Positions 1-53,004 of a DNA stretch of 64,000 nucleotides are shown here, in pieces. The notes under the pieces were generated by a model. It had not been told where the DNA came from and ran no database searches. It saw only the letters and a program-made list of their open reading frames with translations. A program made the position numbers and the translations under genes. The stretch comes from a virus: positions 91,271 through 155,270 of the IMG/VR virus record IMGVR_UViG_3300020183_000008, one strand, 5' to 3'. Positions within the stretch are counted from its first letter, which is position 1; the number at the start of each line of letters is the position of its first letter.

Positions 1-716
1 AAAATACCTGAATCTTCATCGTGCCGAGAAAATGCATAAGCCGTGGGATAAGCCATCGACCCTTGAGCAAACACGGTAGATGAATCAGTCACACCATCAG
101 GGTGCGCTCCGAAATTGACCCCCTGAACTGTGCGAATTCTGTACTGAAGCTGAACACGCGAAGTTGTAGATGTGCCGATAGGAGAAAAATAAATATCATC
201 TTCGAGGGGTGTGATGCCACTCTGTACATTACCATAAGGATAAATTGTGTTCGTGCTAGGTTTACCTTGAGAAACTAAGGGTTCTAACTGCATGTACCAC
301 AATTCGAGAATAACCAAATCTTGCCGAGCACCCGTGCCTGGAGCAGGTGGTAAGGTGATCACTAATTTCGAGGGATCATTGGTATTTGTCCCACCAATCT
401 CAACAAAGTCACCGAGAAGATTGAACCTAAAAGGTTTATCCAAACTATTTTTAACGATGAATGTATTAGGTGTATTTGTAAAGTTCACCCCGTACTGCTC
501 ACCACTTTGGTCATAGCCAACACTAAAAGGATTATTAGCTGGTAGGAACCCTGAAGGGTAAATAGAACTAAATGCATCTCTCGAAAGAGATGATGAGAGG
601 TCCCCGAGGAAATTCAGTTCTGAGTCGAGCGGTGGTTTACTCGGTTTGAATATAACACTCCGATAGCTCGAATCGCCTTTTTCAAGTGTTCTTGTTGTTC
701 CGTTGTAGTTTCTCAT
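1..716 (-). CDS. Tail/baseplate-associated structural protein (3'-truncated by window edge), paralog of 716..4147
   Basis: Not in the ORF track. ATG at 716 overlaps the upstream TGA. Translates MRNYNGTTRTLEKGDSSYRSVIFKPSKPPLDSELN...RQDLVILELW...RVQLQYRIRTVQGVNF...VFAQG, colinear with the N-terminal domain of 716..4147. Confidence 0.7.
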   Translation of the reverse strand, partial: MRNYNGTTRTLEKGDSSYRSVIFKPSKPPLDSELNFLGDLSSSLSRDAFSSIYPSGFLPANNPFSVGYDQSGEQYGVNFTNTPNTFIVKNSLDKPFRFNLLGDFVEIGGTNTNDPSKLVITLPPAPGTGARQDLVILELWYMQLEPLVSQGKPSTNTIYPYGNVQSGITPLEDDIYFSPIGTSTTSRVQLQYRIRTVQGVNFGAHPDGVTDSSTVFAQGSMAYPTAYAFSRHDEDSGI

Positions 717-3700
717 CAATCAACCTTCGTTCTGACTTTGATAATACGATCAGTTGGATAAAAGAGTTCAGCCGCACCTAAAATTCGGTTCGCTTCATTC
801 TTCTGCCCTGTAGTCGATACAACCACCGCATTGTTGTTAATTATTAGGGAATTAGCTTTACCTTGTTTTAATAAATTAAATTCAGGGGTTGAAACCCACT
901 CTGCGGATGCAGTGGATGTCAGGGTGAATAACAACAATTCGTTTTTGTAAATCCCGCGACCTACTGCGATGCCATAAACTATGTTCATAGTATTTTGACC
1001 TGTGCGGTACATGATCTTCACTTCAGAAGACACAGCAGGTGCGTTTTTCAAAATGATCGTGTTATCCCTACCTCTAATTTCATCAATACTCTCAGGATCT
1101 AATTCTACCCCATCAACAAATACTTTAAGGTCGGGCATGTATATTTCATAGCAATCAGTGATATTTGTTCCTGAAAAAGCTGTTTTCAAATTCAAAAAGC
1201 TATCACTCTGAACAGTATGAACAGTGTACCAAGTCGTTGTCCCGAAAGGTCTGATTTTCATCCCAGGTACAAGAACTCGCGTGAAAAAACTACCGACCCC
1301 ATTCACGGTTCTTTGTCCATTTTGAAAAGTAGCCACTTCATCAGGAATAAAAAGTCTACTTAGACAATAAGTACCGTAAATGTTCAGTATAGGCTCGCGA
1401 GTAGTAAATATCTTATTTGTCCCTGTGGTCTGAACGCTAAGATCCTCTTCGATCAGATCTGAAAATTTTCCACCTTGAATACTTATTTTCGGTGAAATTA
1501 AAGCTAAACCACGTCTTGGATAATTAGGAGATGAAGAACTTGAAATCTTTTTGAAAACAAGACGGTCACCTTCCTCCAAGGGTTTAGTTTCGGGAAAATA
1601 AGAAAACGTGTAGTGAAATTTATTGGTAGCACCTTTGTTTTCGACAGCGAAAGATGACACGTTTCTACTTGTGAATTCATAATCGTAGTCGGTGGAATTG
1701 ATTGGAAGGCGTATTGTTTTTCCAACCTCGTGGTCGTTTCGAACAACACCCCCTGTGCCATTCGATGTTACGATCACATCATTTGATAAATACACCAAGT
1801 CAGCTTCCAACTCTTCATCATCAGATAAGGTATTCGAAAGACCTTGGTAAGGAATTGATGAATAAAGAATTGAGTAAAGGTCTGTGCCTAAAGGAGCGTA
1901 ACTGCCTAGAACAGGAATTCGAACGGTCTTTCCTGCGGGAGGGGCAGTTAGAAAACTAACCGTTAAACTTATTGTATTTAAACCTGTGATAGTATCGATT
2001 TCTAACCAGGCACCATCTGTAGTCAAAGAATCAGAAATGAAACAACCATACTTATAGGTGTTTGGTGTATCCTGATAACCAGCCAAGGCGTATACATACT
2101 CCATCCTGTTACCAGTCGAGGTCGCTTGCCTGATTGTGTAGTTTTTTTGATCAGCTACGGTGGTGATAGTCAAATAAGTCGTTCGGACAAAGTTTACCAA
2201 ACCTCTATTTGGTGTGATGACCTCACAGCCCGTACCACCTAGCAACAGAGTAATTTTTATTACATCCGTGCTCGCCGGAAAGTAGGATGCGAAATTCACC
2301 TCGTAACTACCATCTGATTTTCTGGTTATTTTTGCATTTTGACCGAAGCCGAGAGGCAAATCAGCAGCGGTGTCAGCCTTCTGTACTCGCATGACAGTCA
2401 ACACAGCCATGTTATCGATGGTAGCAGGGACGGTCACTTTTGAAGTCCCGTTACCTACAGTATGCCAAACCCGTTCTACCAAACCACCTTTAATATCTTC
2501 TCTTGCTGTAGTCGGATTGATGAAATTAGAGGCAGGTCGAATGAAAGCACTGTCCAAGTATCCGTTAATGGTTCTTGTTACAGCGAGATTTCTGATTTTT
2601 TGATCCCGAGACCATAAGACTTCTTTTGAGGTCAAATCATCACGAACAGAATAAAAATCCGTAGGTAAATAGGATAGACCAGAACCCGCAGGTAACACTA
2701 AATCATACTCAACAAGAAGGGGTTTGCCTAGAATATCGTTGTTGTTAAGTGGTTTAAACGTAACTTTATTTTTCTTTAGCCTATCCCCAAGATTAACCCA
2801 ACCAGAAATGCCCACCGATGTGTCAGCCGATATTTCCGAACCCGTCGTAGCGTTGGTTACTTTAGGAATCTTCTTTAACCCGATGAAGGGGTTGTAATCT
2901 TGGTAGTCATCTGAGTCAGCACTCGTATAAAAAACAGGAGGTTCAATCTCTAACCTACCGTTCACTAAACTACCCGCTGTAATGTACTGAACTACACGCT
3001 CAGTCATTTCGTTATCAGTGAAGGATCTACGAATTCCATTTGGTTTTCGTAGCATATTGTCCGCAATACCTGATCTTTCAGTTGTGGAAATACCATCGAC
3101 CTGAAGATTTTTTGCGGAAAATAATTCAGATGTGCCACCAAGAGAAAGACGATTAGGTAACCCATCCAAGATATCTCTTAGAGATTTGTCAGCGAGTGAG
3201 GGGTAATTTATATTGAAGTCGACCACATGACGAAGGTCCTCAATTTCATGGTCTGCGATTTCATCTACGAAAAGACCATCAGGACGATCGCTTACAAGGT
3301 CTTCAATTTTTTTATTTCCACCGTTCAAATTTGTTGAACTGTACGCTAAACGATTTCTACGGTGAATCGCACAAACAGGTAATGCATAGACATACCCATC
3401 AACGGTACCTAATGCACTCGTATCTGTATTTGTGCCACCTCCAGCAATAAAATGACCTTGAGGTGTTTTAACAAAATTTTTACCGATGATAGGACTTGTT
3501 TTTGCTCCTTGCGCAAAAACAGCGGGATGGTCTACACCTTCTCGAAATGATAGAAAATCCACACCTTCGACTACACGGTAACGATACTTGATTTGAGTAC
3601 GTTTCGTCGTTTCGCGACCGATGTTAGAATCAACTAAATCATTTGCGATCGGAGTACCTGCGTACTGCGAGTTTCCATATTTTGGAATGTAGGAATCACT

Positions 3701-4147
3701 TGAAATAACCTCTTCCCACACCTCAAGGAAAACCAAATCTTCTCGACTGCCGATGGATGGACCATCACCGATGATGAAGAAACTTGAGTTCTCATCACCA
3801 TTGCCCAACATCTGCCAAACATTCTGCGTCGCATTAGCTTGGAACTGATTAGTTCCCCCGCCAACGTGAAACACATGCCCGTTTATCAACACAGTAGGGT
3901 TAGGAATGGAAATCGTATGTTTCCACACATTCGTTCCACTCGAAGGACGACCTGTAATTGGACCTTTGATAACGAAACCACTCGTCGTTATCGCGGATAC
4001 CAAGTTTCGGAGATTTTCCACACCGATCGCCTGAACAAGGTTCCACTCACTGTCGAGAGGAGGACGAAGAGGTTGAAAAACGACTCCTGTAAAGGATCTG
4101 TCTTCCGCTGGAAGCACTCTACTGGTTTTGTTTCCTAAATTCCTCAA
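716..4147 (-). CDS. Large virion structural protein (baseplate/tail-fibre attachment; DUF6519-like N-terminus)
   Basis: 1143 aa, Thr/Ser/Gly-rich beta composition. N-terminal PPLDSEWN and DLVFLEVW motifs shared with 1..716 and 34027..35280. Confidence 0.6.
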   Translation of the reverse strand: MRNLGNKTSRVLPAEDRSFTGVVFQPLRPPLDSEWNLVQAIGVENLRNLVSAITTSGFVIKGPITGRPSSGTNVWKHTISIPNPTVLINGHVFHVGGGTNQFQANATQNVWQMLGNGDENSSFFIIGDGPSIGSREDLVFLEVWEEVISSDSYIPKYGNSQYAGTPIANDLVDSNIGRETTKRTQIKYRYRVVEGVDFLSFREGVDHPAVFAQGAKTSPIIGKNFVKTPQGHFIAGGGTNTDTSALGTVDGYVYALPVCAIHRRNRLAYSSTNLNGGNKKIEDLVSDRPDGLFVDEIADHEIEDLRHVVDFNINYPSLADKSLRDILDGLPNRLSLGGTSELFSAKNLQVDGISTTERSGIADNMLRKPNGIRRSFTDNEMTERVVQYITAGSLVNGRLEIEPPVFYTSADSDDYQDYNPFIGLKKIPKVTNATTGSEISADTSVGISGWVNLGDRLKKNKVTFKPLNNNDILGKPLLVEYDLVLPAGSGLSYLPTDFYSVRDDLTSKEVLWSRDQKIRNLAVTRTINGYLDSAFIRPASNFINPTTAREDIKGGLVERVWHTVGNGTSKVTVPATIDNMAVLTVMRVQKADTAADLPLGFGQNAKITRKSDGSYEVNFASYFPASTDVIKITLLLGGTGCEVITPNRGLVNFVRTTYLTITTVADQKNYTIRQATSTGNRMEYVYALAGYQDTPNTYKYGCFISDSLTTDGAWLEIDTITGLNTISLTVSFLTAPPAGKTVRIPVLGSYAPLGTDLYSILYSSIPYQGLSNTLSDDEELEADLVYLSNDVIVTSNGTGGVVRNDHEVGKTIRLPINSTDYDYEFTSRNVSSFAVENKGATNKFHYTFSYFPETKPLEEGDRLVFKKISSSSSPNYPRRGLALISPKISIQGGKFSDLIEEDLSVQTTGTNKIFTTREPILNIYGTYCLSRLFIPDEVATFQNGQRTVNGVGSFFTRVLVPGMKIRPFGTTTWYTVHTVQSDSFLNLKTAFSGTNITDCYEIYMPDLKVFVDGVELDPESIDEIRGRDNTIILKNAPAVSSEVKIMYRTGQNTMNIVYGIAVGRGIYKNELLLFTLTSTASAEWVSTPEFNLLKQGKANSLIINNNAVVVSTTGQKNEANRILGAAELFYPTDRIIKVRTKVD

Positions 4148-4247
4148 ACTCTTTCTCCCTTTACACTCTTACGCGATGCAATTATCAAAACTTTACGAGT
4201 TCAGGATTTCTGATCAACTAAGCATAGTTCTTAGAATTATTGCTTAA

Positions 4248-4526
4248 TTAGCAGAACACAGCTCCCGAATACCTTCCGTTCGATATATAAAGCGTAACTC
4301 CATAAAGGGTGAAATCCATTTTTTGCACACACTCAGGGCAAAGAAAAGCATCGAAATGCTCGAAGTCCCCAACGATGCCTTCACCGATAGGATCTCCATC
4401 TTTATAGACGTTCCCAACAACACCTAACCCCAAAGTATGTACTTCCACATCACCTTGGTAGGAGCATCTTGAGCACGACCATCCCTTACACACAAATACA
4501 CTTGTTTTTATCTTCGGAAGTTCCAT
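4248..4526 (-). CDS. Small zinc-ribbon-like hypothetical protein
   Basis: 92 aa with CSRC and CPEC pairs. Confidence 0.55.
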   Translation of the reverse strand: MELPKIKTSVFVCKGWSCSRCSYQGDVEVHTLGLGVVGNVYKDGDPIGEGIVGDFEHFDAFLCPECVQKMDFTLYGVTLYISNGRYSGAVFC

Positions 4527-4602
4527 CCTAAGATGATAGCAAATTTAATACAAACACAATTCTCATTTCAAAAACATCCACAAAGATGTCTGAAATAAAT
4601 TT

Positions 4603-4729
4603 ATGCTCATAAGAAACTACTCACTCTGGTCGCTCATATCAGAGAATTTCGACTCACCTCGTATCCCTTTTGGAGCTTGGCATCGAGTCTACAGTTAAGA
4701 GGGTTTTCTAGCTTCAGGAGCTCAAGCAT
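4603..4729 (-). ncRNA. Possible structured RNA domain (third of cluster)
   Basis: Minus-strand helices by eye: AUGCUU(4729-4724)/GAGCAU(4608-4603) enclosing GACUC/GAGUC and CUCUG/CAGAG; no ORF. Confidence 0.3.
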
Positions 4730-4750
4730 CCTGTCCTAACTGTTTGTTTT

Positions 4751-4807
4751 TACTGTTTCTTATAGATGTTTTTCTTCTTTTCCTATTTCAGTTTTTTGTC
4801 TTTGTTT
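4751..4807. repeat. Partial third copy of the 94-bp direct repeat at 5732/5906
   Basis: TACTGTTTCTTATAGATGTTTTTCTTCT..CCTATT.CAGTTTTTTGTCTTTGTTT, two mismatches to the other copies. Confidence 0.9.
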
Positions 4808-4822
4808 TTTTTCGAACTTTCG

Positions 4823-5054
4823 GGGCTTCACTTTTCATCGTGTCCGTCCAACCACGAGGCTTTCACCTCGATTCTCCGAGCATCTCGACGAGCTTTCATT
4901 TCTAAAAGCGGGGCGAGTGTCTTCTCTGGTCCATCCGTTTCACAGGTAACTTCTTGGGTCGTCGACCCTTGTCGCTACGAGCTACCCACCGCAGACACCC
5001 AACTTAAACTATCGTTCGGTGACGCTACAGGAGATGATGTTATCGGCTGTGCCC
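4823..5054 (-). ncRNA. Predicted ~230-nt structured non-coding RNA of unknown class
   Basis: Seven nested helices (several with G-U pairs, favouring the minus strand) plus a CGAGGU-GAAA-GCCUCG GNRA hairpin; GC-richer than flanks. Confidence 0.6.
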
Positions 5055-5061
5055 TGACCTA

Positions 5062-5627
5062 GTTCAGATGATGCTGTAAAGATTGCACAGGGATGAAATA
5101 GTTCACCCCTTCGAACCAACAGCCTATGCTCCCACAAGACTGACCTACATGAAGACCATTACTTCAGAAAGTGATGGTAGTGAACATCACCCATTTCCAT
5201 AAACCTTTTGCCCTTAACTTCTCAGGTAAACAGTAGCGGAATTCAATCCATTCCCATAAACCTAGATACGCTTCTATGAAGACCATCAATCAAGAAGGTA
5301 ACAGTAGCGGAATTCAACCCATTCCCATAAACCTTTCCCACCAACTTCTCCAAGATAAACAGTAGCGGAATTCAATCCATTCCCATAAACCCTAGATACG
5401 CTCCTACGAAGACCATTAAAGACAAGAAGGTAACAGTAGCGGAATTCAATCCATTCCCATGAACCTTTGACTTAACTTCTCTGAAGGATTGCAGTAGCGG
5501 AATTCAATCCATTCCCACAAACCTTAGATACGCTTCTGCAAGTGTTACTTGCTTACAGAATGAACTCTGTCTTTCGGTAAACTAACTATCAAGAATAGAT
5601 ACCTGTTCACACATTGTTCATCTGAAC
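5062..5627 (-). ncRNA. Predicted ~566-nt ncRNA enclosing a repeat array
   Basis: Predicted +1 near 5627 begins GUUCAGAUGA, perfectly complementary to UCAUCUGAAC at 5071-5062. Further nested helices ACAGG/CCUGU, AUAGUU/AACUAU, CGAA/UUCG. Confidence 0.6.
5175..5523. repeat. CRISPR-like array of 32-bp repeats with alternating related spacers
   Basis: CAGTAGCGGAATTCAATCCATTCCCATAAACC at 5231, 5302, 5360, 5434, 5492 (0-1 mismatch), plus a degenerate copy at 5175-5205; spacers 25/39/26/42/26 bp. Confidence 0.95.
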
Positions 5628-5633
5628 GATTAC

Positions 5634-5663
5634 ATAATAGACAGACAATTTCGGCGGAGTCAA
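5634..5663 (-). promoter_or_regulatory. Sigma70-type promoter reading into the repeat array, containing the TCCGCCGAAAT box
   Basis: Minus strand TTGACT-18 nt-TATTAT. Confidence 0.65.
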
Positions 5664-5731
5664 TAACTCATCTAAGATTTTCAAAATAAATATACTTGAC
5701 TACTTTTGATGCATTTAATCGAGGGCAGTCT

Positions 5732-5999
5732 TACTGTTTCTTATAGATGTTTTTCTTCTCTTCCTATTACAGTTTTTTGTCTTTGTTTCAAAGAAACAAA
5801 GTAAGAGGGTAAGATCTATATCTATTTATATTTATATTTATAATGATCTAAAATATAGCATTTTATGTTTGATTACTTTTATAGCACTATGACATGATAG
5901 ATACCTACTGTTTCTTATAGATGTTTTTCTTCTCTTCCTATTACAGTTTTTTGTCTTTGTTTCAAAGAAACAAAGTAAGAGGGTAAGATCTATATCTAT
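5732..5999. repeat. Two identical 94-bp direct repeats (5732-5825, 5906-5999) flanking an AT-rich spacer
   Basis: Direct comparison; each copy contains the inverted repeat CTTTGTTTC-AAA-GAAACAAAG. Confidence 0.95.
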
Positions 6000-6044
6000 A
6001 AATATTGAGTAAAGGATAGTTCATAGGAGAAGAGAAGAGGATAG

Positions 6045-6092
6045 GGATACCTCATAGGATACCTCATAGGATACCTCATAGGATACCTCATA
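6045..6092. repeat. 4 x 12-bp tandem repeat GGATACCTCATA (iteron-like)
   Basis: Four exact copies, with degenerate copies near 6014 and 6101. Confidence 0.95.
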
Positions 6093-6161
6093 GAAGAGAA
6101 GAGTAGCTCATAGGGTGAGATAAATCGTTCATCCTTTTCAACCTACGGATGGGGGTGAAAG

Positions 6162-6704
6162 GTGAGTGCTTTAAAGGCAGAACTCAAAAGAGTTGTGAAA
6201 TTCGCTGAAAGCCTAGGACTCAAGGTGCATTTCATAGATGCGTATAAGCGCGATTACCACGGTTGTTATATGCACCCTGAGAAATTCGAACCTGGCATAA
6301 TCGAAGTTTGTAAAACCAGAAGAACCACCATCACTTTTCAAATCATCACCTTGCTTCATGAGATAGGTCACCATCTTGACTTCATCGAATCAGGGAAGAT
6401 GCCAGATTCCTATAATCTCATCGATTCCGATGACTGTCCCGATTGGGCTAGGAAATCAATCTTTAAAGCGGAAAGGCGTGCCTGTAAGCACGCTGAAAAG
6501 CTGTACTGGACTTTGAGACTCCGAGTTCCTTTTTGGAAGGTCAAAATGGAATTGTCTTTGGATATTTTCCTGTACCGCATGTTCAAAAATACAGGGGACT
6601 ATCCAACCACGAAACAGTATGAAAGTTTTCGGCGGAATTGGAAAAAGAGGTTTAAGGAAAGATATTCAAAAGATACACCCCCAAGGAGTAAACTGATTGA
6701 TTGA
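6162..6704 (+). CDS. ImmA/IrrE-like zinc metallopeptidase domain protein
   Basis: TLLHEIGHH (HExxH) with downstream E (AERRA). Confidence 0.65.
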   Translation: MSALKAELKRVVKFAESLGLKVHFIDAYKRDYHGCYMHPEKFEPGIIEVCKTRRTTITFQIITLLHEIGHHLDFIESGKMPDSYNLIDSDDCPDWARKSIFKAERRACKHAEKLYWTLRLRVPFWKVKMELSLDIFLYRMFKNTGDYPTTKQYESFRRNWKKRFKERYSKDTPPRSKLID

Positions 6705-52652: not shown

Positions 52653-52935
52653 GAATCAGACTTTCACATTCAAAGTGACCCCTTTGTTCCGCGAGACAGT
52701 GGAATCCTCTTTATGTTATGTGAAGAATGTTAATTTATCAAGAGAATTTGATCTTAGTCAAAGTGAAGTGTCATTGACGAGTCGGCAAGTCTCTTTGATC
52801 CTAGAGGGTTTGCAACCAGTTATTGAGTACCACAATAATCATGAGATGTGGGAGAAGGCTGATGCCTTCAAAGAAATTCAAACTTATCTGATTTTAGAAT
52901 CTAAGAATCAGTATTTCGGGGATGTGGCGAAATAG
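52651..52935 (+). CDS. Hypothetical protein (3' end overlaps tRNA)
   Basis: 94-aa ORF with AGGTG SD. Confidence 0.5.
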   Translation: MNQTFTFKVTPLFRETVESSLCYVKNVNLSREFDLSQSEVSLTSRQVSLILEGLQPVIEYHNNHEMWEKADAFKEIQTYLILESKNQYFGDVAK

Positions 52936-53004
52936 GTAGACGCATCGGACTTAAAATCCGGTGGGAGTAATCTCGTGCCAGTTCGAGTCTGGTCATCCCT
53001 ACCA
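52918..53004 (+). tRNA. trnL: tRNA-Leu(TAA)
   Basis: Acceptor GGGGATG/CATCCCT-A-CCA, anticodon arm TCGGA-CTTAAAA-TCCGG, long variable arm, T-loop TTCGAGT. Confidence 0.96.

What the first reader, a model, noticed from the sequence alone, without database searches (positions are those of the whole stretch)
5062..5663. Promoter-driven ~566-nt RNA whose ends pair and enclose a CRISPR-like array with alternating A/B spacers
Seen: a minus-strand TTGACT-18-TATTAT promoter predicts +1 near 5627. The first 10 nt pair perfectly with 5071-5062, followed by nested helices 5606-5602/5091-5087, 5589-5584/5103-5098 and 5576-5573/5115-5112. Inside lie five near-identical 32-nt repeats (as RNA, GGUUUAUGGGAAUGGAUUGAAUUCCGCUACUG, hairpin GGAAU-GGAUUGA-AUUCC) and a degenerate sixth at the promoter-distal end, the same polarity as CRISPR arrays. 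The spacers are not unique. They alternate between a 25-26-nt family (core AGAAGUU) and a 39-42-nt family (UUACCUUCUUG..UGGUCUUC..AGCGUAUCUA), giving a 129-132-nt dimer unit. No ORF spans the array and no cas operon is in the window. Inference: a multivalent protein-binding RNA. Options are a CsrA/RsmA sponge (AUGGA enters the hairpin loop in four of five repeats), a CRISPR-repeat-mimic anti-CRISPR RNA, or the precursor of an unknown processed small-RNA system.
Basis: partly seen in the sequence, partly recalled or inferred. Interest (0 to 1): 0.88.

Follow-up and report, generated by a model that had tools for sequence, protein, structure and literature searches.

The report
Hairpin array inside a phage RNA
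The CRISPR-looking array is real, but it is six copies of a roughly 50-nt hairpin that one lake jumbo phage has amplified inside the closed outer domain of a conserved, undescribed folded RNA, most likely to display many identical binding sites for a partner that is still unknown.

Summary
There are five 94-100% identical 32-nt repeats plus a degenerate sixth, two alternating linker families, a sigma-70-like promoter, no ORF, and a 10-bp helix joining the RNA's first bases to 5071-5062.

Five related phage contigs (64-69% identity in the neighbouring 1143-aa protein where measured) carry the same RNA gene. They share the promoter position, the enclosing helix P1, a second 4-bp helix P2 and a 210-240-nt 3' core. 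P1 and P2 covary in all six sequences. The core has 53 pairs, 91.5% paired, 14 with compensatory changes. None of the five has the array: P2 encloses 80-87 nt in four of them (L185, scored by eye, looks similar) and 481 nt here.

So the array is a lineage-specific threefold amplification of a ~130-nt unit inside a peripheral domain of a structured RNA that matches no Rfam family. It is not a CRISPR array.

Each repeat caps a hairpin with G-U pairs that only the minus strand can form, and every substitution at a paired position keeps its pair. Repeats stay 94-100% alike while co-duplicated linkers fall to 58-83%, so the repeat itself is under selection.

I read it as a multivalent RNA display or decoy. 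The partner (CsrA, Cas6, ToxN-like or other) is untested. This scan noted the array before only on this same genome, not on other DNA.

The parts
5634..5663 (-). Promoter: -35 TTGACT (5663-5658), 18-nt spacer, -10 TATTAT (5639-5634)
   Evidence: A -10 box lies 6 nt before P1 in the four relatives scored (L003, L005, L087, L004; sequences) and, by eye, in L185.
5618..5627 (-). P1 5' strand GUUCAGAUGA; predicted +1 at G5627
   Evidence: 10/10 pairs, probability 0.84-1.0. Compensatory changes in L003, L005, L087, L004 and L185 (by eye).
5610..5613 (-). P2 5' strand UGUG
   Evidence: Pairs with CAUA 5128-5125. The helix is UGUG/CACA, CGUG/CACG, UGCG/CGCA and CUAG/CUAG in relatives. It is supported by comparison only; its ensemble probability here is 0.00.
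5524..5609 (-). Native 5' part of the P2-enclosed domain; ends in a partial B-type copy (AGAAGCGUAUCUA)
5492..5523 (-). Repeat R1 (A6 to G, compensated by U to C in the first linker base)
5466..5491 (-). Linker A1 (26 nt)
5434..5465 (-). Repeat R2
5392..5433 (-). Linker B1 (42 nt)
5360..5391 (-). Repeat R3
5334..5359 (-). Linker A2 (26 nt)
5302..5333 (-). Repeat R4 (A to G turns an A-U pair into G-U)
5263..5301 (-). Linker B2 (39 nt)
5231..5262 (-). Repeat R5
5206..5230 (-). Linker A3 (25 nt)
5174..5205 (-). Degenerate repeat R6; keeps all 11 consensus pairs through five pair-preserving changes
   Evidence: 56.5 bits with model R1.
5129..5173 (-). Partial B-type copy (UAAUGGUCUUCAUGUAGG) and native 3' part of the domain
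5125..5128 (-). P2 3' strand CAUA
5072..5124 (-). Enlarged hairpin between P2 and P1 (6-18 nt in four relatives, longer in L185)
5062..5071 (-). P1 3' strand UCAUCUGAAC
4817..5054 (-). Conserved 3' core of the same RNA
   Evidence: Alignment A5; 53 pairs, 91.5% paired, 14 pairs with compensatory changes, covariation above all 500 shuffles; single copy in the contig, 191 bits.
4566..4745 (-). Second conserved structured block and a hairpin plus U5; probable 3' end of the transcript (inferred)
   Evidence: 29 pairs, 9 compensatory. The hairpin ACAUC/GAUGU followed by UUUUU was read.

Best explanation
The array is a recent, lineage-specific tandem amplification. A ~130-nt unit, made of two hairpin modules joined by an A linker and followed by a B linker, is present three times. 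It sits inside the peripheral domain closed by helices P1 and P2 of a conserved structured non-coding RNA found in one clade of lake jumbo phages.

The RNA is made from the minus strand, starting at about G5627, and runs through a 238-nt core to at least 4817, probably to about 4566. The RNA matches no described family.

In the transcript, each 32-nt repeat with its flanks folds into a ~50-nt imperfect hairpin. The lower stem comes from the linker ends. The middle stem is AUGG/CUGU. The top stem is UGGA/UCCG with loop UUGAAU, or alternatively GGAAU/AUUCC.

The result is six near-identical hairpins strung on a stably closed scaffold. The sequence of the hairpin is held by selection. The most likely working principle is therefore a multivalent display or decoy that binds several copies of one sequence-specific factor, phage or host.

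Shown: the anatomy, the strand, the conserved scaffold, the absence of the array in relatives, and the selective pattern. Inferred: transcription itself, the binding, and the identity of the partner.
For: 1. The same RNA gene occurs in L003, L005, L004, L087 and L185, with the -10 box 6 nt before P1.
2. P1 and P2 keep pairing through compensatory changes in the five sequences scored; L185 was read by eye. P1 probability is about 0.99 here.
3. The 3' core has 53 pairs, 91.5% paired, 14 with changes on both sides. 0/500 shuffles reach the covariation score, and the slid controls pair only 35-49%.
4. P2 encloses 80-87 nt in the four relatives scored and 481 nt here. The hairpin model R1 finds nothing in relatives' loci.
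5. The consensus fold of the six modules has 11 pairs with none broken in any copy. It has three G-U or U-G columns, which would be A-C mismatches on the plus strand. One pair shows a double change, A-U to G-C, in module 1. Five pair-preserving changes occur in the degenerate copy.
6. The minus strand folds at -166.5 kcal/mol against -109.6 for the plus strand.
7. Repeats are 94-100% identical, while A linkers are 61-70% and B linkers 58-83%.
8. The array is identical in independent lake samples.
Against: There are no expression data; no RNA run was listed.

Only six family members are known, and none of the closest relatives (78% protein identity) could be read across this region, because their contigs end just short of it.

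The fold z-score of the P1-enclosed domain is modest at -1.75.

Even-numbered modules fold ambiguously in the ensemble.

Most pair-preserving changes are transitions at G-U pairs, which preserve pairing by default, so the statistical weight is moderate.

No candidate binding protein was identified.

The surrounding intergenic region is rich in other lineage-specific tandem DNA repeats, so amplification here may be mechanistically easy and partly neutral.
Confidence: 0.55

Rival explanations
1. Neutral expansion segment. Replication slippage or unequal recombination tripled a piece of a tolerant peripheral domain, and the copies have no function of their own.
For: Relatives work without it. The same RNA in this phage has other enlargements, in the core and in the hairpin between P2 and P1. 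The intergenic region carries several other lineage-specific tandem repeats. The edge copy R6 is decaying.
Against: The two repeats inside a unit, and all units, stay 94-100% identical, while linkers duplicated with them have diverged to 58-83%. Whole-unit homogenisation would have kept the linkers alike too. Substitutions avoid breaking pairs.
Confidence: 0.18
2. The repeats act as double-stranded DNA: binding sites for a replication initiator, a partition or packaging protein, or a regulator, next to a putative origin.
For: The array lies 100-500 bp from an AT-rich stretch (23-27% G+C) with 12-bp tandem boxes. The cumulative GC skew turns there and transcription diverges there. Each repeat holds a 5-bp inverted repeat around GAATTC. 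Relatives have other tandem boxes in this region.
Against: The repeats sit inside the P1/P2-closed domain of a transcribed structured RNA. The fold shared by all six copies needs G-U pairs possible only in minus-strand RNA, and changes preserve those pairs. Spacing alternates between 56-58 and 71-74 bp, which is not helically phased. No initiator-like gene was identified beside it.
Confidence: 0.12
3. CRISPR-repeat mimic (Racr or crRNA-like RNA) that soaks up a host Cas6 or effector.
For: The repeat is 32 nt with a stem-loop. The first repeat lies 104 nt after the predicted start, within the 250 bp used to pick Racr candidates (PMC10651486). The degenerate copy is promoter-distal. From memory only: on the plus strand the layout is 7 nt, a 17-nt stem-loop and CAUAAACC, which recalls the type I-E handle.
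Against: Linkers are two homologous alternating families, not unique spacers. There is no linker match elsewhere in the contig beyond the array itself. No similar repeat occurs in 72,556 plasmids or 50,697 phage records. No Cas6 or Cas6e is present in the contig. The I-E-like layout is on the strand opposite to the conserved RNA, and no plus-strand promoter-like site precedes it. Described Racrs are solitary repeat units, not parts of a larger folded RNA.
Confidence: 0.07
4. CsrA/RsmA sponge in the manner of CsrB/RsmZ.
For: Each repeat has two GGA triplets. In the alternative fold GGAAU/AUUCC the loop starts with GGA preceded by AU, which is A-N-GGA (probability 0.25-0.40 in modules 2 and 4).
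Against: In the fold supported by all six copies the GGAs lie in stems or an internal loop. There is no match to any Csr/Rsm RNA family even at E up to 10. No CsrA is found in the contig. The host is unknown.
Confidence: 0.04
5. Mimic of a type III antitoxin RNA (pseudo-ToxI-like), amplified under selection to neutralise a host abortive-infection RNase.
For: There is a documented precedent: a phage non-coding repeat expanded from 1.5 to 4.5-5.5 copies and thereby escaped ToxIN (PMC3475682). The copy number is similar, and the array is lineage-specific.
Against: ToxI-type repeats are contiguous 36-nt units without linkers and form pseudoknots. Here the units are hairpins separated by 25-42-nt linkers. 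No ToxN match was found in the contig, but that search rang in no control genome either.
Confidence: 0.04

Closest known systems
CsrB/RsmY/RsmZ-type protein-sponge RNAs
   Same: One non-coding transcript carries many copies of a short hairpin motif. Copy number varies between lineages. It works by multivalent sequestration.
   Different: No family match was found. The GGA triplets are not in loops in the best-supported fold. Here the hairpins are near-identical 50-nt modules embedded in a larger conserved scaffold with a separate 238-nt core. The partner is unknown.
Phage pseudo-ToxI repeats / type III antitoxin RNA arrays (PMC3475682)
   Same: A phage-encoded tandem RNA repeat whose copy number expands in one lineage, reaching 4.5-5.5 copies. 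It acts as a decoy for a host protein.
   Different: ToxI units are contiguous 36-nt pseudoknots processed by ToxN. Here the units are hairpins with alternating linkers inside a closed domain, and no toxin partner is known.
RNA anti-CRISPRs (Racr) / viral solitary repeat units (PMC10651486)
   Same: A CRISPR-repeat-sized stem-loop element just downstream of a promoter in a phage, with no cas genes beside it.
   Different: Racrs are defined by likeness to a real CRISPR repeat, and none was found here. Racrs are solitary small RNAs, not six copies inside a ~0.8-1-kb structured RNA.
Expansion segments and variable peripheral domains of large structured RNAs (rRNA, RNase P RNA, group I/II introns)
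   Same: A conserved core is combined with a helix-closed peripheral domain whose length differs several-fold between relatives. Insertions keep the closing helices intact.
   Different: Expansion segments are not usually arrays of near-identical units under sequence selection.
CRISPR array
   Same: 32-nt direct repeats with a hairpin, regular spacing, and a degenerate promoter-distal repeat.
   Different: The linkers are two alternating homologous families of two lengths. There are no cas genes. The array is enclosed in a folded RNA that relatives carry without repeats.

Membership tests
CRISPR array | Near-identical direct repeats of 23-47 nt | tested here: met
   Five 32-nt repeats, 94-100% identical.
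CRISPR array | Unique spacers of roughly constant length | tested here: not met
   Two alternating homologous families, 25-26 nt and 39-42 nt.
CRISPR array | Associated cas genes, or at least a Cas6-type processing enzyme | tested here: inconclusive
   No Cas6 or Cas6e match in the 155-kb contig, and none among the neighbouring genes. The contig is only about 35% of the genome.
Racr / solitary repeat unit | Sequence and fold similar to a genuine CRISPR repeat of the host's system | tested here: inconclusive
   No similar repeat in the plasmid or phage collections. No CRISPR repeat database or host genome was available.
Racr / solitary repeat unit | Promoter within 250 bp upstream | tested here: met
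   R1 begins 104 nt after the predicted +1.
CsrB/Rsm sponge RNAs | Match to a Csr/Rsm RNA family model | tested here: not met
   No Rfam match at the gathering score or at E up to 10.
CsrB/Rsm sponge RNAs | Many GGA motifs presented in hairpin loops | tested here: inconclusive
   There are two GGA per repeat. They are paired or in an internal loop in the consensus fold, and in the loop only in the alternative fold, which has probability 0.25-0.40 in two modules.
Type III antitoxin RNA (ToxI-like) | Contiguous tandem repeats of about 34-40 nt next to a ToxN-type toxin gene | tested here: not met
   The repeats are separated by 25-42-nt linkers. There is no ToxN match, though that search had no positive control.
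Iterons / origin or centromere repeats | Duplex DNA repeats, helically phased, bound by an initiator or partition protein | tested here: inconclusive
   Spacing of 56-58 and 71-74 bp is not phased. Pair-preserving changes and G-U pairs point to RNA. Protein binding is not testable here.
Any Rfam family (whole RNA) | Covariance-model match | tested here: not met
   Only a tRNA at 52918-53001 passes in the window. Nothing credible was found in 4100-6300 at E up to 10.
The new RNA family defined here (P1, P2, 3' core) | -10 box 6 nt before P1; P1 and P2 enclosing a variable domain; 3' core matching model R2 | tested here: met
   (191 bits).

The most novel reading that the evidence does not exclude
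A previously undescribed family of jumbo-phage RNAs uses a stable core plus a helix-closed 'display' domain. In one lineage the phage has amplified a specific hairpin in that domain six-fold, as an evolvable RNA decoy against a host RNA-binding defence or regulatory protein. This would be a natural scaffolded sponge, distinct from CsrB, ToxI and Racr.
Probability: 0.3. Interest if true: 0.8.

Novelty: new variant of a known kind. Interest (0 to 1): 0.6.

Why it matters
This turns a puzzling 'CRISPR array with repeated spacers' into a defined object with two parts. The first is a new, covariation-supported structured RNA family in large lake phages. The second is a clean natural experiment, with the same scaffold seen with and without a six-hairpin array.

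If the hairpin binds a host factor, this would be a second documented route, after pseudo-ToxI, by which phages tune RNA decoy dosage through repeat amplification. The array-less relatives would serve as built-in controls.

It is also a caution for CRISPR and Racr detectors. Repeat length, hairpin and regular spacing are all met here without any CRISPR relationship being shown.

Tried and rejected
- Exact and gapped searches for the repeat in IMG/VR and JGI metagenomes found nothing.
- blastn of the whole region against phage records found nothing.
- The 3'-core motif scans returned one true new member among the fetched hits (L087). All other fetched hits of the 103 metagenome, 70 genome-contig and 39 IMG/VR stretches were chance: they failed the second-motif check or the core model R2. 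The genome-contig hits were not screened.
- Relatives of neighbouring proteins in IMG/VR: none.
- Sequencing runs: no RNA holder listed.
- Logan contigs of four lake runs break at the repeats and show no variants or joints, so nothing was learnt about copy-number variation.
- The closest relatives (78% identity) could not be read across the region. One contig ends 187 nt before the 92-aa gene and the other had no DNA served. P0005 and P0010 also had no DNA served.
- More distant relatives (46-47% identity) have no large intergenic region at this place.
- Local alignment of the array unit to relatives' variable domains is not significant. An 'AUGGGAA' likeness between the repeat and the conserved junction before P2 is therefore too short to count.
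- The 98-aa plus-strand ORF 4766-5062 has a low-complexity translation, no family match, and overlaps the covarying core, so I reject it as a gene.
- tRNA or tmRNA likeness of the modules: none by ARAGORN.
- REP/BIME-type dispersed element: rejected, because the repeat is confined to this locus.
- The 1143-aa neighbour gave only a weak DUF4815 lead and no PDB match.

Full report
**What is there.** The window is the right-hand 64 kb of a 155-kb IMG/VR virus contig. CheckV estimates it as 35% complete, which suggests a very large (jumbo) phage.

Positions 4527-6161 form a 1.6-kb gene-free gap between two blocks:
- A leftward block: a 92-aa zinc-ribbon-like gene, then two paralogous ~1150-aa genes.
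- A rightward block: DksA-type zinc finger, clamp-loader-like protein and ribonucleotide reductase.

On the minus strand I confirm five 32-nt repeats, 30-32/32 identical to each other, plus a degenerate sixth. They are separated alternately by 25-26-nt 'A' and 39-42-nt 'B' linkers. Partial B copies lie at both ends, so the structure is three ~130-nt units. The repeat exists nowhere else in the contig. No ORF over 42 aa crosses the array. The whole intergenic region is identical in contigs from two other lake samples, so it is not an assembly artefact.

**The key result: relatives.** The neighbouring 1143-aa protein has relatives at 64-78% identity in public assemblies. Readable contigs with the syntenic gap (L003, L004, L005, L185), plus one contig found by a motif scan (L087), all carry the following in the orientation of the window's minus strand:
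- A -10 box with a variable -35.
- Exactly 6 nt later in the four scored (L185 by eye), a 10-11-nt segment.
- About 100 nt downstream, the complement of that segment.
- The motif UAGG.
- A strongly conserved 210-240-nt block.

Its sequence differs between phages while pairing is kept. For example, the window has GUUCAGAUGA/UCAUCUGAAC and L003 has GUUUACAGGA/UCUUGUAAAC.

A second 4-bp helix, P2, covaries as well: UGUG/CAUA here, and UGUG/CACA, CGUG/CACG, UGCG/CGCA and CUAG/CUAG in relatives.

For the 3' core (window 5054-4817), the consensus structure has 53 pairs and 91.5% of cells paired. Fourteen pairs have changes on both sides. The covariation score is above all 500 shuffles, and when the 3' partners are slid by 1-3 columns pairing falls to 35-49%. 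Many pairs are G-U, so the strand is the minus strand.

Rfam has no match for any part of it, at gathering scores or at E up to 10. The core is single-copy in the contig. Further motif scans of IMG/VR gave no other members. Contigs of more distant relatives of the neighbouring protein (46-47% identity) have no large intergenic gap at this place, although both contigs end within ~1.2 kb upstream.

**Where the array sits.** In the four relatives scored, P2 encloses 80-87 nt, which fold into three small hairpins. L185, read by eye, looks similar. In the window P2 encloses 481 nt. A covariance model of the repeat module finds only the six copies in this phage and nothing in relatives' loci. No significant similarity links the array unit to the relatives' variable domain.

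The array is thus a lineage-specific amplification inside a helix-closed peripheral domain. P1 and P2 were kept intact around it.

**RNA level or DNA level.** Aligning the six modules gives a consensus hairpin of 11 pairs with none broken in any copy:
- Lower stem: AGG/CCU, extended by copy-specific pairing of the linker ends.
- Middle stem: AUGG/CUGU.
- Top stem: UGGA/UCCG, with loop UUGAAU.

Three columns are G-U or U-G, which would be A-C mismatches on the other strand or in a DNA cruciform.

The few substitutions are all pair-preserving:
- An A-U to G-C double change in module 1, involving the first linker base.
- A-U to G-U in module 4.
- Five changes in the decayed sixth copy.

Most of these are transitions at wobble pairs, so the statistical weight is moderate rather than strong.

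In the ensemble of the 811-nt RNA, P1 has probability about 0.99. Odd modules adopt this fold at 0.72-1.0. The minus strand folds much better than the plus strand, at -166.5 against -109.6 kcal/mol. The z-score against shuffles is only -1.75.

**Selection.** Repeats are 94-100% identical. The A linkers between them are 61-70% alike and the B linkers 58-83%. Linkers were duplicated together with the repeats, and the two repeats within a unit are flanked by unrelated linkers. Whole-unit homogenisation therefore cannot explain the pattern. The 32-nt element itself, loops included, is under sequence constraint. That is what one expects of a site read by a sequence-specific partner.

**Mechanism proposed.** A stable scaffold (P1, P2 and the core) displays six copies of one hairpin and acts as a multivalent binding platform or decoy. 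The partner is not identified.

The GGA triplets are not in loops in the best-supported fold, no Csr/Rsm family matches, and there is no CsrA in the contig.
- A CRISPR-repeat mimic is not supported. No similar repeat occurs in the plasmid or phage collections, no Cas6 is present, and the linkers are not spacers. It is not excluded, because no CRISPR repeat database or host genome was at hand.
- From memory only, the plus-strand layout ending in CAUAAACC recalls type I-E repeats, and a minus-strand stretch recalls the Cas12a handle without its second arm. These are leads, not tests, and the first is on the wrong strand.
- The best functional precedent for a phage amplifying an RNA repeat is pseudo-ToxI, which expanded from 1.5 to 4.5-5.5 copies to escape ToxIN (PMC3475682). 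The unit architecture differs here.

**Rivals.**
- A neutral expansion is plausible mechanistically, since this region is full of lineage-specific tandem repeats. It does not explain the contrast between repeats and linkers.
- A duplex-DNA role, as iterons or a centromere next to the AT-rich, skew-switching region at 5700-6100, is not excluded. It is disfavoured by the location inside a folded RNA, by the strand-specific pair conservation and by the unphased spacing.

**Limits.** No expression data are available, as no RNA run was listed. Only six family members are known. The two closest relatives could not be read across the region. The host is unknown.

**Verdict.** However, it belongs to a larger conserved RNA and is a private amplification in one phage species. 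It is a new variant of the known kind 'repeat-bearing sponge or decoy RNA', carried on a new RNA family. Interest is 0.6.

Noticed in passing
window 4566-4745 (minus strand); L003 4322-4480; L087 628-790: There is a second conserved structured block downstream of the 3' core on the same strand, with 29 consensus pairs, 9 of them with compensatory changes. It ends in a covarying hairpin. A U-tract follows only in L087. In the window a further hairpin plus U5 lies at 4590-4566. This is probably the 3' part of the same ~1-kb transcript.
   Followed up: partly
window 4751-4807, 5732-5832, 5906-6006; L003 3718-3770 and 4261-4313; L185 ~245-297 and ~808-868: The promoter and RNA gene are bracketed by 53-101-nt direct repeats in the window, L003 and L185, and similar purine-rich sequence follows the RNA in L005 and L087. 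The repeat sequence differs between phages, but measured copies within a phage are 96-98% alike. In the window the repeat is confined to this locus. Its function is unknown; it could be an insulating terminator, a recombination site or a regulator site.
   Followed up: partly
window 6045-6093; L087 1-100; L003 3799-3830 and 4502-4574; L006 1-180: Other lineage-specific tandem boxes lie in the same intergenic region: 12 nt x 4 here, 28 nt x 4 in L087 and 16 nt x 2 in L003. A shared 24-28-nt box family lies between the second RNA block and the 92-aa gene in L003, L087 and L006. The AT-rich stretch at 5700-6000 coincides with the turn of cumulative GC skew, which is origin-like.
   Followed up: no
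window 716-4147 (-) and 3-719 (-, continues off the window): The 1143-aa protein and the following ~1168-aa protein are paralogues (27% identity over 70%). They are conserved as a pair in all relatives, with no Pfam, PHROG or PDB match and only a weak language-model lead to DUF4815 phage proteins.
   Followed up: partly
window 4248-4526 (-): A 92-aa protein with two CxxC pairs (zinc-ribbon-like) is conserved directly downstream of the RNA region in all relatives. It has no family match.
   Followed up: no
L002 1-190 and L006 1-280: Contigs of two relatives end within 190-280 nt upstream of the 92-aa gene. This fits assemblies breaking in repeat-rich sequence at this locus.
   Followed up: no
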